Assembly (NCBI GenBank): GCA_037305845.1 | Contig: CP147778.1 | Location: 2,080,001 to 2,144,000, forward strand | Direction: 5' to 3' | Length of the DNA: 64,000 nt | From: Candidatus Freyarchaeum deiterrae | GTDB lineage: Archaea > Asgardarchaeota > Jordiarchaeia > Jordiarchaeales > Jordiarchaeaceae | Shown here: positions 2,269-48,161 of the stretch, piece after piece | Layout of the letters: every line of letters starts with the position of its first letter | Numbering within the stretch: the first letter of the stretch is position 1 | The notes under the pieces: generated by a model | What the model was told of the DNA's origin: nothing | Database searches by the model: none | What the model saw: only the letters and a program-made list of their open reading frames with translations | Program-made: the position numbers and the translations under genes

Positions 2269-3609
2269 TTAAAGTACTGGCAGATACTTTGACCACTCCC
2301 AGCTTGTTACCGTCATAGTGAATTCTTTCCATTCTTCCTTTTTTCCTTCGATGAATCTAGTGAAAACATGTTCTCCTAATGCTTCTTTGGCTATCGCACT
2401 TTTTTCTGTAAGTTCTATTGCCTCGCCAAGTGATCCTGGGAGTTGATCGATGTAAAACTCTTTTAATTTTGCTTCATCAAATTCATAAACATCTTCGTCC
2501 ACTGGGTCTGGTGGTTCTATCTTATTTTTCATTCCTTCAAGACCCGCCTTGAGCATCACTGCGAATGCTAGATAGGGATTACATGAAGAGTCTGGACACC
2601 GAAGCTCTACTCTTAGAGATTTTTCTCTTCCTAGGAAGTATTCGGGAACCCTTATCAAAGCCGATCTGTTTCTTCGCCCCCAGCAGATGTAGACTGGTGC
2701 CTCATATCCCGGAACTAGTCTTTTGTAGGAGTTTACTGTAGGTGCTAATATTGATATTATCTCTTTTATGTATTTTAGCTGACCGCCGATGAAGTAAAGT
2801 GCGTTTTCAGAAAGGCTGTATTTTCCGCTTTTATCAAAGAAAGCGTTTTTATCCTTGTTCCAAAGACTCTCATGAACGTGCATCCCAGAGCCATTTATCC
2901 CGAAGAGTGGCTTTGGCATAAATGATGCAAAGAGGTTATGCTTTTTGGCGATGGCCTTTAATACATATTTATAAGTTAATACGGCATCCGCAACGCGTAA
3001 AGCATCACCATACCTGAAGTCGATTTCATGCTGTCCGGGCGCCACCTCATGGTGCCCCATCTCAACCTGTATCCCCATCTCTCCAAGAGTAGCTGCCGCT
3101 TCTCCACGAACATCGAACGCTAAGTCTAGAGGCGCGAGATCGAAGTAGCCTCCTTTGTCTTGAGGCACAGGCTCTAGTCCGTCTAATTGTTTGAATAGGA
3201 AGAATTCTAATTCTGGTCCTACTAAGTAATTAAATCCCATTTTCTTTGCTTCATCTAGGCTTCTTTTTAGAATGTTTCTAGGGTCTCCTTCAAACGGTTT
3301 ACCCTCAGGTCGATACACATCACAAAAAATTGTGGCCACTTTTTTATCTGTTATTCTTGGAGATAGTATCGTGAAGGATGAAGGATCAGGAATTAATCTC
3401 ATGTCGCTTTCATAGATTCTTGCGAATCCCTCTACCGAGGATCCGTCAAAGCCTACACCGTTATCTAAAGCTTCCTCTATTTCTCTAGGAGGAATTGCGC
3501 AAGTTTTTGGGGTGCCGAATATATCTACAAATTGTAAGGTTATGAGACTTATTTCATTTGAACTCACTTTCTCAATTATCTGTTGCTTCAGTTCTTCTTT
3601 GGATTGCAT
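2269..3609 (-). CDS. glnA: Glutamine synthetase type I (GSI-alpha-like)
   Basis: FDGSSVEGF, GPELEFFLF, HHEVAPGQHEIDF, FMPKP..GINGSGMHVH, NSYKRLVPGYEAP, NRSALIRVP; an alternative GTG start lies at 3618. Confidence 0.95.
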   Translation of the reverse strand: MQSKEELKQQIIEKVSSNEISLITLQFVDIFGTPKTCAIPPREIEEALDNGVGFDGSSVEGFARIYESDMRLIPDPSSFTILSPRITDKKVATIFCDVYRPEGKPFEGDPRNILKRSLDEAKKMGFNYLVGPELEFFLFKQLDGLEPVPQDKGGYFDLAPLDLAFDVRGEAAATLGEMGIQVEMGHHEVAPGQHEIDFRYGDALRVADAVLTYKYVLKAIAKKHNLFASFMPKPLFGINGSGMHVHESLWNKDKNAFFDKSGKYSLSENALYFIGGQLKYIKEIISILAPTVNSYKRLVPGYEAPVYICWGRRNRSALIRVPEYFLGREKSLRVELRCPDSSCNPYLAFAVMLKAGLEGMKNKIEPPDPVDEDVYEFDEAKLKEFYIDQLPGSLGEAIELTEKSAIAKEALGEHVFTRFIEGKKEEWKEFTMTVTSWEWSKYLPVL

Positions 3610-44864: not shown

Positions 44865-45085
44865 CTTTTCAAACTTCCCTAAAATGTTCTTGTTTTAGTT
44901 ACTTTACGCTCTTACAAAAATTTCATCCCTGTATTTCCTTGCAATCATCTCAATAAATACTTTTAACTCTTACTAAACAATTTTGCTTCACGAAAAAATA
45001 TTCTTGTTACCTAGGTTATTAATAAATCTTCATCCAATATTCCGTGAAATTAACTTGAAATGCAAACGAAATTCTCTTTAGTACT

Positions 45086-45970
45086 TTAAAGAATCCCTAT
45101 AACCTTGTGAGCTTGAATCGAGAGCGAAATATCTTTTTTATCAAGATACTTTGACGCAGTCTCCGTGAACTGGAATAATTGTTTTATCGTGGGTTTCTCT
45201 TTTACTTCCCCGAATGGTGTCACAATCTGTATGCATAATGGGCATCCAATCTTGGCTAGTTCCAATGCGTACCATTCAATATTCTCTGATTTCGTCTCAG
45301 AAGTGACTACAACCTTGGCGAATGTCTTCTTTTTCGCATCCATAAAAATTTTCATAGTTTGGAATTCTCTCTCCACAAGAGCGCTCCAGTCGGAGGCAGC
45401 TCCCGCTGTTTCGTCTTTGATATCACAACAGCAATACTCAAAAAGATCAACAATTTTCAATGCGCAATTGGGCAAAGACCCGTTAGTCTCAAGAAAAAGA
45501 TTGTACCCGCCCGATACAAGTAACTCCGAAACTTCCTTTAGGAAATCTGTTTGATGCAAAGGCTCTCCACCAGTAAATGAAATTGAATGAAGATCCGGAG
45601 TTTCAATCCTTTTCAAATATTCGTACAACCTATCTGAGTCTATAGGGTTTGAAAATAGCGTGAACTCTCCGGTGCCTGGGTTTTCTTCCATTCTGAATTG
45701 CTGCATTTCCGGATTTTGAGCTCCAGGCGAGTGGCGTCTTTAGAGCGTACTCCACAAGATGTCGCACCACCTGCAGCCCTCGGTTCCGAATTCTCCTAAG
45801 GCTAGGTTGCAGCCCGCTAATCGAGCGATTCGACGAAAGGATAAAACTCATCCTTCCTATATCTGACGCTTCCCATAACACGAGCCGCTGACATTGCCTC
45901 CTTCCCCTTTACCTCCCTCTTAAGGGATCTGGTAGGAGGAGAACATCTCAGCGACCCATCCCTTAACCAA
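45086..45970 (-). CDS. queE: 7-carboxy-7-deazaguanine synthase (radical SAM), four exons: 45970-45929, 45907-45859, 45828-45761, 45730-45086; 267 aa after splicing
   Basis: Spliced N-terminus MVKGWVAEMFSSYQ|GEGGNVSGSCYGKRQI|FARLAGCNLALGEFGTEGCRWCD|SPGAQNPEMQQF, then FTGGEP, LETNG, QAHK; TTG start after a GAGGTGA SD. Confidence 0.9.
45731..45760 (-). other. queE intron 3 (30 nt, near-canonical BHB)
   Basis: CAGGUG-G-UGCG-AC^A-[UCUU-G-UGGAG(UACG)CUCUA-AAGA]-CGCC-AC^U-CGCCUG; in-frame UAA; removal gives UGG UGC GAC UCG CCU (WCDSP). Confidence 0.85.
45829..45858 (-). other. queE intron 2 (30 nt, relaxed BHB)
   Basis: AGAU-AU^A-[GGAAGGAUGA(GUU)UUAUCCUUUC]-GUCG-AA^U-CGCU; central helix pairs 3/4; introduces in-frame UAG and UGA; removal gives CAG AUA UUC GCU CGA (QIFAR). 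Confidence 0.82.
45908..45928 (-). other. queE intron 1 (21 nt, canonical BHB)
   Basis: RNA UCC-UACC-AG^A-UCCCU(UAAG)AGGGA-GGUA-AA^G-GGG: 4-bp central helix UACC/GGUA and two 3-nt bulges; contains in-frame UAA; removal gives CAG GGG GAA GGA (QGEG). Confidence 0.9.
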
Positions 45971-46165
45971 TAACATCACCTCGAAATAGATACAAGCATA
46001 AGGTTTTCTAATTAACTCAGTTTCTGAGTCAAGAAGTCTTTTTTACTTTAAATTTGTTTGGCAGTTGATATAAACTTTTATTCGATAAAGCTTATGTATC
46101 TGTTTCTGCTTTATTGATGTGGATTCTCCCTGAGGCTGATCTTTATGTCTTTAGTAGGACTTTTG

Positions 46166-46567
46166 ATGGGTAAAATGGAGCTTCGGTTGTGCAATGCGAG
46201 GTCTCTTGAGCAAAACAAAATGATGGTTGAAAAACCAGGCTCAAAAAGCTATGTTGAATCAACAGCGGTTGTGCTACTAGGCAAAGATGATATGGGCCAT
46301 TACGGTCTTAAAAACGGAGATACTGTTAAGGTAACAACAAAGTTTGGAACGGTGGTTGTTAAAGCCTACCAAACAGACGAAACAAAAAAGGGAATAGCGC
46401 TCATGCCTAACGGACCGTGGTTCAACTCGATAACCGACCCAGACATAGACGTAACTGGTTTTAACTCCTACTACGTGTTAAACGCCAGTATAGAAACCAC
46501 AAATGAAGAAGTTCTGGATACAGAAAAATTCTTTGAAAAGCTACTGAGAGAGGACGCTCATGAGTGA
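46166..46567 (+). CDS. fwdD: Formylmethanofuran dehydrogenase subunit D-like (molybdopterin dinucleotide-binding domain)
   Basis: GDTVKVTTKFGTVVV, MPNGPWFN; overlaps the fwdA start; start uncertain (46145-46175). Confidence 0.75.
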   Translation: MGKMELRLCNARSLEQNKMMVEKPGSKSYVESTAVVLLGKDDMGHYGLKNGDTVKVTTKFGTVVVKAYQTDETKKGIALMPNGPWFNSITDPDIDVTGFNSYYVLNASIETTNEEVLDTEKFFEKLLREDAHE

Positions 46568-48161
46568 ATCACTTCTTTTAAAGAACGGCTTCGTGTTTGA
46601 CCCCAAAAATAATGTGAATGGGGAACGTATGGATATAGCCGTAAAAAACGGCGTGATAGTTGAATCGGTAAAGGAAAAGGGCAGCAAGGTCGTGGATGCC
46701 CAAGGAAAAATGGTTTTTCCCGGTGGGATAGATATCCACACCCATATTGCCTCTCAGCATGTTAATTTTGGACGAATGCTATACCCCTCAGTATCAGGTA
46801 AGATCCTTCCTACCTCCCCCGAAGTAGGGCTAATGTACGCAAAAATGGGCTACACATTCGCACTTGAAGCCGCAGTGTCACCAACAAAAGCTTTACACAC
46901 TCACCTGGAATTCTCAGATATACCCATATTAGACTACGCGTGTCTGCTAGTCTTAGATTCATACTGGTATCTATTACAAGACGTTAGAAAAAAGTCCGTA
47001 GAAGAAGCTGCCACAATTATATCATGGCTGCTGGAATCGACCAAGACCTATGGAGTCAAACTGGTTGATCCCTTATCAAGTGAAATGTGGAGTTTCAAAA
47101 AAGAAATAACAAGCTTAGAAGAACCCATAAAGCTCCTCGGAGTATCTCCCCTGGATGTCATTCAAACACTAGGAAGAGCAAACGAATACCTAGGACTACC
47201 TCATCCAGTTCACATACATCCCAACGAAGCCGGAAAACCCGGAAACTACGAAACAACCCTCAAAACACTGAAGGCAATGGAAGAAGTAAGCCCCAATAAA
47301 AAACAGAGATCGGTACATTTAGCACACGCTCAATTGCACAGCTACGGGGGAAGCGAAGCAATCGAATCCAAAGCAGACCAAATAGCAGAATACATAAACA
47401 CCCACCCAAACGTGGAAGCAGACATTGGACAGATGGTGCCCCACGAAACAATAAGCCTTTACGCAGACAACCCCTTCCTAACCAGAATCGCGAAAGGAAA
47501 AAACATATTTACCGACCAAGTAGAAATGGAAGCAAGTTTCGGGGCAGCACTAACGGAATACACAATGGACGCAACCGGCAGCGTAATGTGGGCAACTGGT
47601 CTAGAACTAGCACTTAGCATAAAAGACCCATGGCAGATTCAGTTATCCGTAGATCATCCAAACCTAGGAATAATCACAGACTACCCACAAATCATTGCAT
47701 GGCTCATAAGCAAAAAAACCCGGGACGAAGTAAAACTAGAAGTGGATACATCACTGCCCTCTATGGATAGGGAATACTCGCTGTACGAAATAGCAATAAT
47801 AACCCGTGCAAGTCCAGCTCAATCACTTAGCTTACCCAACAAAGGAAACCTCTCAACTGGGTCAGACGCAGATATCGCGGTATACGATTTCAACCCTGAA
47901 ACCCAAGACCCCACAAAGGAAACAGAAGCCCTGATAAAAGCCTTCACCCAAACTTCCTACACTATAAAAAGCGGAGTAATGGTCATGAAGGAAGGAGAAG
48001 TCCTCGTAAAACCAAGAGGAAAAACCTACTGGGCGCACAGAGACGGAATCAGTTTTCCAGAAAAAAGGATAACGGAAATGCAGCGCTACTACTCACTTGA
48101 CATCAACAGCCTAAAAATCCCAAGGGAACTACTCCACAGCTCCCAAGAAGTAACATACTGA
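46560..48161 (+). CDS. fwdA: Formylmethanofuran dehydrogenase subunit A-like amidohydrolase
   Basis: GIDIHTH, YAKMGYT, GVKLV, HPVHIH, HLAH, VDHPN, IITRASPA, DADIAVYD. Confidence 0.85.
   Translation: MSESLLLKNGFVFDPKNNVNGERMDIAVKNGVIVESVKEKGSKVVDAQGKMVFPGGIDIHTHIASQHVNFGRMLYPSVSGKILPTSPEVGLMYAKMGYTFALEAAVSPTKALHTHLEFSDIPILDYACLLVLDSYWYLLQDVRKKSVEEAATIISWLLESTKTYGVKLVDPLSSEMWSFKKEITSLEEPIKLLGVSPLDVIQTLGRANEYLGLPHPVHIHPNEAGKPGNYETTLKTLKAMEEVSPNKKQRSVHLAHAQLHSYGGSEAIESKADQIAEYINTHPNVEADIGQMVPHETISLYADNPFLTRIAKGKNIFTDQVEMEASFGAALTEYTMDATGSVMWATGLELALSIKDPWQIQLSVDHPNLGIITDYPQIIAWLISKKTRDEVKLEVDTSLPSMDREYSLYEIAIITRASPAQSLSLPNKGNLSTGSDADIAVYDFNPETQDPTKETEALIKAFTQTSYTIKSGVMVMKEGEVLVKPRGKTYWAHRDGISFPEKRITEMQRYYSLDINSLKIPRELLHSSQEVTY

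What the first reader, a model, noticed from the sequence alone, without database searches (positions are those of the whole stretch)
45731..45970. Protein-coding gene (queE) split by three tRNA-type bulge-helix-bulge micro-introns
Seen: the 5' end of queE contains three inserts (45928-45908, 21 nt; 45858-45829, 30 nt; 45760-45731, 30 nt). Each forms an internal hairpin flanked by 3-nt bulges and a central 4-nt helix. Cutting after the 2nd nucleotide of each bulge (the established rule for archaeal splicing endonuclease EndA) gives junctions that rebuild conserved QueE motifs: SYQ|GEG, RQI|FAR and CRWCD|SP. All six cut sites agree with protein conservation. Established: archaeal mRNA BHB introns are known mainly as single introns in crenarchaeal cbf5. 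Inference: this is a multi-intron mRNA processed by EndA plus an RNA ligase (RtcB), in a probable Asgard archaeon. Standard ORF callers miss it and annotate a truncated QueE lacking its radical-SAM motif.
Basis: partly seen in the sequence, partly recalled or inferred. Interest (0 to 1): 0.96.

Follow-up and report, generated by a model that had tools for sequence, protein, structure and literature searches.

The report
Three spliced mini-introns in Asgard queE
The queE gene of this Asgard archaeon is cut into four pieces by three tiny tRNA-type introns; public sequencing data from a close relative show two of them removed at exactly the predicted bases, and about fifteen more protein genes of the same genome look spliced the same way, whereas the papers searched document this inside a coding sequence for only one archaeal gene (cbf5).

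Summary
Confirmed and extended. Removing three inserts (45928-45908, 45858-45829, 45760-45731; each with an in-frame stop) gives a 267-269 aa QueE that aligns without gaps to about 80 uninterrupted orthologues. All ten other same-order genomes searched (Jordarchaeia-type Asgard) carry inserts at the same three sites, 15-30 nt, mostly not multiples of three, with invariant exons and conserved bulge-helix-bulge (BHB) geometry; here introns 2 and 3 have one central-helix mismatch. A relative's contig from run SRR28530378 matches its intron-bearing contigs at 3021 of 3021 bases but lacks exactly introns 1 and 2 at the predicted, non-slidable junctions; intron 3 is retained. Sibling runs likewise lack exactly the alba and rtcB inserts. 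That these runs hold RNA is inferred, not shown. The genome encodes a crenarchaeal-loop-type EndA pair and RtcB, and at least 17 further BHB inserts in 15 genes (cbf5, rtcB, ahcY x3, tyrS, gatE, nadE, porA and others). Verdict: real EndA/RtcB-type mRNA splicing, a multi-intron, genome-wide variant of the cbf5 case; not found in papers searched. This scan noted the same queE introns and similar ones before on other Asgard DNA.

The parts
45929..45970 (-). queE exon 1 (42 nt from TTG 45970; ATG 45976 and GTG 45979 are in-frame alternatives), ends ...SSYQ
   Evidence: GAGGTGA at 45982-45976 is spaced 5 nt from TTG 45970 (sequence, inference)
45908..45928 (-). intron 1, 21 nt, phase 0, strict BHB (helix TACC/GGTA, bulges AG|A and AA|G), in-frame TAA; 20-26 nt in relatives
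   Evidence: orthologous 22-nt intron absent exactly in L062
45859..45907 (-). queE exon 2, 49 nt (GEGG...KRQI), length invariant in 12 genomes/contigs
45829..45858 (-). intron 2, 30 nt, phase 1, relaxed BHB (helix AGAT/GTCG 3/4; 10-bp inner stem), in-frame TAG and TGA; 18-38 nt in relatives
   Evidence: orthologous 38-nt intron absent exactly in L062
45761..45828 (-). queE exon 3, 68 nt, carries the three 4Fe-4S cysteines (C-x11-C-x2-C), length invariant
45731..45760 (-). intron 3, 30 nt, phase 0, relaxed BHB (helix TGCG/CGCC 3/4 here, 4/4 in 9 of 11 distinct copies), in-frame TAA; 15-30 nt in relatives; retained in L062
45086..45730 (-). queE exon 4, 645 nt with stop; contains the truncated 206-aa ORF called by annotators (45706-45086), radical SAM Pfam PF04055
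44400..44864 (-). queD (6-carboxytetrahydropterin synthase, PF01242), uninterrupted, 222 nt downstream; supports the QueE assignment

Best explanation
The queE pre-mRNA carries three protein-spliced, tRNA-type introns. Each intron folds into a hairpin whose 3' end pairs with the last exon bases to form a 4-bp helix flanked by two 3-nt bulges; the heteromeric splicing endonuclease EndA cuts after the second base of each bulge and the ligase RtcB joins the exons, giving a full-length QueE (preQ0/archaeosine pathway). Shown: the inserts, their conservation and geometry, restoration of QueE, precise absence of introns 1 and 2 from a relative's contig. Inferred: that this contig reflects RNA, that intron 3 is also removed (possibly last or least efficiently), and that EndA and RtcB do the work. 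The introns were probably gained once, before the two families of this order split, and belong to a genome-wide set of at least 20 such mRNA introns in 16 genes, including rtcB itself.
For: Gap-free alignment at all three junctions with about 80 intact QueE proteins, junction residues Q|G, I|F, D|S/T near invariant. Inserts at the same sites in 5/5 same-genus and 5/5 same-order genomes, none in 6 more distant genomes with contiguous queE. Exons 49 and 68 nt invariant; 21 of 34 distinct introns not multiples of 3; intron 1 inner stem paired in 60/60 cells with T-A/C-G swaps at all five positions; first bulge base A in every copy. L062 (SRR28530378) equals L060/L061 at 3021/3021 nt except two non-slidable gaps of 22 and 38 nt at the predicted junctions. 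Same pattern for alba (13,155 identical nt, one 30-nt gap; second species too) and rtcB (485-aa full-length product, gap at the predicted site). EndA alpha best matches PDB 3p1z/3ajv with catalytic Tyr/His/Lys and K-P-K aligned to the K44-P45-R46 loop that gives broad specificity (PMC3241643, PMC12397907); a second EndA paralogue and RtcB present. Intron-bearing QueEs form one side of a branch, 90/92.
Against: Library type of SRR28530378/79 could not be read with the tools; the contigs are 4-13 kb and span divergent genes, so they are not pure mRNA assemblies. Intron 3 is retained in the only partly spliced contig; no fully spliced queE was found in the protein collection and neither junction 2 nor 3 in JGI contigs. 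The spliced contig is from a relative (82% identical over the C-terminal ORF), not this genome. Introns 2 and 3 deviate from the strict BHB here. No biochemical test.
Confidence: 0.95

Rival explanations
1. The intron-less contigs come from DNA: a sub-population has lost the inserts precisely (recombination with reverse-transcribed mRNA or exact excision), and the contigs are not direct evidence of RNA splicing.
For: Library type unknown; long contigs over divergent genes; genomic alba without the intron exists in other members of the class (P0161), so precise loss happens in evolution.
Against: Three genes and two species show exact gaps within the same run series with zero other differences in 3-13 kb for queE and alba, and which intron is missing varies from run to run (78: queE i1+i2 and alba; 79: alba and rtcB but not queE; 82/83: retained). 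Precise loss by this route would itself presuppose spliced mRNA.
Confidence: 0.06
2. The inserts are removed at RNA level but by an enzyme other than EndA/RtcB (another nuclease-ligase pair or self-splicing).
For: No enzyme test; two of three motifs are relaxed here; rtcB needs splicing itself.
Against: Observed cuts fall exactly on the EndA rule (2nd bulge base, 4-bp stagger); 15-38 nt is far too short for group I/II ribozymes (established knowledge); the EndA has the loop known to permit relaxed motifs.
Confidence: 0.03
3. Translational recoding (read-through, frameshift or ribosome hopping over hairpins) makes the protein from unspliced mRNA.
For: In this genome all three inserts are multiples of 3 and hairpins are typical recoding signals.
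Against: Three different stop codons; orthologous inserts take all three phases; read-through would put 7-10 residues into motifs that tolerate no insertion in about 80 orthologues; nucleotide-level gaps seen.
Confidence: 0.01
4. queE is a pseudogene with insertions, or the inserts are assembly artefacts.
For: Stops inside the 5' region.
Against: Same intron lengths in three independent runs of this species; exons open and conserved in 11 genomes of two families; queD adjacent, queC and TGT-family genes present with open frames.
Confidence: 0.005

Closest known systems
cbf5 pre-mRNA intron of Crenarchaeota (Watanabe 2002; Yoshinari 2006; Yokobori 2009, PMC2738675)
   Same: Short ORF-less intron in a coding sequence, BHB-like boundaries, cuts between 2nd and 3rd bulge base, heteromeric EndA, placed in a conserved motif. 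This genome's own cbf5 has a 32-nt BHB insert at the same position, inside the catalytic Asp codon.
   Different: cbf5 has one intron in one gene of another phylum. Here one gene has three introns with 49- and 68-nt internal exons, and at least 16 genes of the genome are interrupted, including the ligase gene.
Multiple non-canonical tRNA introns of Freyarchaeia/Jordarchaeia/Atabeyarchaeia (PMC11291895; bioRxiv 10.64898/2026.10.13.758758)
   Same: Same lineage, same motif, several introns per gene, same EndA.
   Different: Both papers treat tRNA genes only; neither mentions mRNA or queE introns.
BHB intron in the 5' UTR of Haloferax HVO_1309 (PMC7714728)
   Same: mRNA substrate of EndA shown in vivo and in vitro.
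   Different: Untranslated region, single intron, no reading frame to restore.
Eukaryotic non-conventional XBP1/HAC1 splicing (own knowledge)
   Same: Short protein-excised mRNA intron, RtcB as ligase in animals, splicing restores the frame.
   Different: The nuclease is IRE1, unrelated to EndA, and recognises two separate stem-loops, not a BHB; analogy only, not tested.

Membership tests
Archaeal BHB (EndA-type) introns | 4-bp central helix formed by exon end and intron end | tested here: met
   Intron 1 4/4; introns 2 and 3 3/4 in this genome (relaxed), 4/4 in 5 of 11 and 9 of 11 distinct orthologous copies
Archaeal BHB (EndA-type) introns | Two 3-nt bulges, cut after the 2nd base of each | tested here: met
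   Predicted cuts equal the non-slidable gaps in L062 for introns 1 and 2; for intron 3 by geometry and protein only
Archaeal BHB (EndA-type) introns | Flanking helices (intron stem and exon-exon stem) | tested here: inconclusive
   Inner stem strong with compensatory changes for introns 1-2, reduced to 1 bp in the 15-17-nt intron 3 copies; outer helix short or offset
Archaeal BHB (EndA-type) introns | Removed from the RNA in vivo | tested here: inconclusive
   Exact absence of introns 1 and 2 in a contig of run SRR28530378; library type not readable; intron 3 retained
Archaeal BHB (EndA-type) introns | Host encodes EndA able to cut relaxed motifs, and an RNA ligase | tested here: met
   Two EndA paralogues, alpha with catalytic triad and crenarchaeal-type loop lysine; RtcB present but itself interrupted
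Archaeal BHB (EndA-type) introns | Cleavage by EndA and ligation by RtcB demonstrated | not testable with these tools
   Needs in vitro assay
QueE (7-carboxy-7-deazaguanine synthase) | N-terminal F-x-S-x-Q-G-E-G and F-x-R-x-x-G-C motifs and three cluster cysteines | tested here: met
   Present only after splicing; C-x11-C-x2-C as in about 80 orthologues; intact orthologue P0012 hits QueE models, below their cut-offs
QueE (7-carboxy-7-deazaguanine synthase) | Pathway context (queD, queC, tRNA transglycosylase) | tested here: met
   queD adjacent; queC-like and TGT-family genes elsewhere
Group I/II self-splicing or spliceosomal introns | Ribozyme core of hundreds of nt, or GT-AG ends with branch point | tested here: not met
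   15-38 nt, ends vary (A/T start; AA, AC, AG, AT end)

The most novel reading that the evidence does not exclude
Jordarchaeia Asgard archaea run a genome-wide, spliceosome-free mRNA splicing system: dozens of core genes, some with three introns, depend on EndA and RtcB, the ligase gene depends on its own product, and incomplete splicing (as for queE intron 3) is used to tie expression of tRNA-modification and metabolic genes to tRNA-splicing capacity. The breadth is well supported; the regulatory use is speculation.
Probability: 0.4. Interest if true: 0.95.

Novelty: new variant of a known kind. Interest (0 to 1): 0.88.

Why it matters
Archaeal coding sequences are thought to be almost free of introns, cbf5 being the one documented case. 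A three-intron gene with sequence evidence of precise removal, in a genome with at least 20 such introns, shows exon-intron structure built on the tRNA splicing machinery in the archaeal group closest to eukaryotes. It makes testable how protein-spliced introns spread from tRNAs into mRNAs and whether RtcB-dependent mRNA splicing predates eukaryotes. Practically, core genes of these genomes (queE, cbf5, rtcB, tyrS, gatE, nadE, porA, ahcY, alba) are annotated as truncated or split, which biases metabolic reconstruction, completeness estimates and phylogenomics.

Tried and rejected
Exact-pattern scans of JGI contigs for spliced junction 3 and junction 2: no match. No full-length spliced QueE of this group among homologues or cluster members; the 262-264-aa entries are wrong-frame calls. 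Three Logan contigs of this very species all retain the introns. Folding-energy z-scores are uninformative. The queE introns have no significant copy elsewhere in the genome, so no donor or mobile source was found. The first genome scans were too permissive; with length-shifted decoys only the strict tiers are clearly enriched (9 vs 1 and 2; 18 vs 5 and 8; loosest 228 vs 190 and 194), so only candidates with independent support are listed. Candidates at C1 735531 and 2313184 were rejected (complete upstream gene or no exon support) and 245491 left open. Sigma-70 promoter scan not applicable. Ten literature searches found no paper on Asgard mRNA introns or on the SRR2853037x-8x runs; subscription journals are mostly not covered and PMC3064391 was not held. 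No structure was predicted, as the spliced product is not an accepted input.

Full report
Observation. On the minus strand, queE reads in one frame from 45970/45976 to 45086 but with four stop codons in three short stretches. Cutting out 45928-45908, 45858-45829 and 45760-45731 gives a 267-aa (TTG 45970) or 269-aa (ATG 45976) protein. Testing registers from -3 to +3, only the stated one gives a paired central helix and inner stem in all three cases; intron 1 is 4/4, introns 2 and 3 are 3/4. A random site pair in this genome meets 3/4 helix plus four inner pairs with probability 3.4e-3. Folding energies alone are not significant. The ORF a caller finds (45706-45086, 206 aa) lacks the cysteines, which lie in the 68-nt exon 3.

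Host. The genome is one contig of 3,576,204 bp. Close homologues are named Freyarchaeota, Jordarchaeum or Jordarchaeales. PMC11291895 describes a complete 3.58-Mbp Freyarchaeum genome with introns in 92-95% of tRNA genes of its three genomes; identity with it is my inference. ARAGORN finds only 17 tRNA-like genes, as expected if most are multiply interrupted.

Protein test. The spliced product aligns to 81 full-length homologues with no gap column at any junction; Q16/G17, F33 and D55 are present in 80 of 81, and position 56 is S or T in all. queD is adjacent, queC-like and TGT-family genes are elsewhere with open frames, so the product is most likely the QueE of the preQ0/archaeosine pathway (inference from established pathway knowledge).

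Comparative test. All five same-genus and all five same-order genomes carry inserts at the same three places; six more distant Asgard genomes have contiguous genes. Internal exons are always 49 and 68 nt. Distinct introns measure 20-26, 18-38 and 15-30 nt; 21 of 34 are not multiples of three. Central helices are kept, the first bulge base is always A, and the intron 1 stem is paired in all 60 cells with T-A/C-G exchanges at all five positions. Related genomes are not independent samples, but the phase changes exclude read-through. In a tree of 42 proteins the 12 intron-bearing ones form one side of a branch (90/92, not starred), consistent with one gain before the two families split.

Sequence evidence of removal. 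The same truncated QueE (82% identical to ours) lies on three Logan contigs of 4275, 4274 and 4214 nt. Intron 3 (29 nt) is retained. For alba, contigs from SRR28530378 and 79 equal one from SRR28530383 at 13,155 and 8,041 bases with a single 30-nt gap, and a second species shows the same gap; the two sliding ranges overlap only at the BHB-rule cut. For rtcB, SRR28530379 yields a full 485-aa protein with the gap at the predicted site, while the truncated twin lies on a contig 29 nt longer. The simplest reading is that runs 78 and 79 contain RNA and that spliced reads won the assembly path where abundant. I could not read the library type, and the contigs are long, so this remains an inference.

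Machinery. Two EndA paralogues (C1 1921033 and 1733162) are uninterrupted; one has the catalytic Tyr, His and Lys, the other lacks the His, suggesting the two-subunit type. The catalytic one best matches PDB 3p1z/3ajv (E 3e-42) and aligns K-P-K to the K44-P45-R46 loop that confers broad specificity in Aeropyrum (PMC3241643; PMC12397907; that these entries are the Aeropyrum enzyme is from my own knowledge and the matching numbering). This fits the relaxed helices of introns 2 and 3. RtcB is present but interrupted by a 29-nt relaxed BHB insert at LPD|AHQGYG.

Genome-wide. A de novo scan for BHB hairpins whose removal joins two coding frames, with length-shifted decoys as control, is enriched only in strict tiers. 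Its best hits rebuild known proteins. NCBIfam profile positions run straight on across the junction for cbf5 (69 to 71), pcm (63 to 65), nadE (148 to 150), porA (28 to 30), tyrS (43 to 45), gatE (88 to 89), selD (90 to 91) and hacA, and approximately for an OYE oxidoreductase and a TIGR00375 protein. ahcY has three inserts (56, 29, 191 nt, all 4/4 helices) whose removal gives one 459-codon frame. moaE rests on its motif only, and a LIMLP_15305-family gene on geometry only. In all: 20 inserts in 16 genes, 17 with 4/4 helices; a lower bound, as in-frame stop-free, long and clustered introns escape the scan. The cbf5 insert splits the catalytic Asp codon, the position known in Crenarchaeota.

Mechanism. 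Shown: inserts, geometry, conservation, restored proteins, exact absence of queE introns 1 and 2 in a relative's contig. Inferred: EndA cuts both bulges, RtcB ligates, introns leave as small RNAs; intron 3 is removed too, since the cysteine exon must be joined to the rest, perhaps later or less efficiently. Speculative: regulation through splicing capacity, including self-dependence of rtcB.

Known versus new. It works like, and by every feature testable here belongs to, the archaeal BHB introns. Published coding-sequence cases are limited to cbf5 (PMC2738675), plus a 5' UTR case in Haloferax (PMC7714728). Papers on Asgard introns treat tRNAs only. I found no paper on multi-intron or genome-wide mRNA splicing in archaea, within a library that lacks most subscription journals. 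The scan's own unchecked notes report the same three queE introns in another Jordarchaeia genome and similar introns in other Asgard genomes; they gave me the lead to look for intron-less contigs and the 191-nt ahcY insert, which I then tested. Class: new variant of a known kind; interest 0.88.

Noticed in passing
G000 C1 1452796-1452824 (-), L034; L072: rtcB, the presumed ligase, is itself split by a 29-nt relaxed BHB insert next to a conserved Asp; a contig from SRR28530379 lacks it exactly and encodes a full 485-aa RtcB.
   Followed up: yes
G000 C1 1483415-1483446 (-), L033: cbf5 has a strict 32-nt BHB insert inside the catalytic Asp codon, the same position as in Crenarchaeota; shared ancestry or independent gain not tested.
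   Followed up: partly
G000 C1 1877011-1877066, 1876899-1876927, 1876203-1876393 (-): ahcY is a second three-intron gene; the 191-nt insert is long enough to host a small RNA (not examined).
   Followed up: partly
G000 C1 1125569-1125598 (+), L041; L051, L052, L057-L059: alba has a 30-nt BHB intron, missing exactly from contigs of two species in SRR28530378/79; other members of the class (P0161, L053) have a genomic alba without it.
   Followed up: yes
G000 C1 2636158, 2244134, 1619887, 1589354, 1715640, 2494680, 1873137, 2285374, 2434689, 1472160, 2458220: Further frame-restoring BHB inserts of 25-34 nt in hacA/leuC, pcm, nadE, porA, moaE, an OYE oxidoreductase, tyrS, a TIGR00375 protein, a LIMLP_15305-family gene, gatE and selD.
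   Followed up: partly
L052:75-431: A public gene call reads TAG as Gln to run through the alba intron: such introns can make pipelines assign a false alternative genetic code.
   Followed up: no
L031:2416-3045 versus window 44865-45085: A relative has a DUF366 gene between queE and queD; this genome has only a 222-nt gap there.
   Followed up: no
window 46145-48161 (+): Molybdopterin-binding and amidohydrolase genes (fwdD/fwdA-like formylmethanofuran dehydrogenase subunits, my reading) lie divergent from queE; the arrangement is kept in relatives (L031, L063).
   Followed up: no
G000 C1 245491-245518 (+), L048: 28-nt hairpin with a 4/4 helix near the end of a small gene; removal gives no recognisable improvement; left open.
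   Followed up: no
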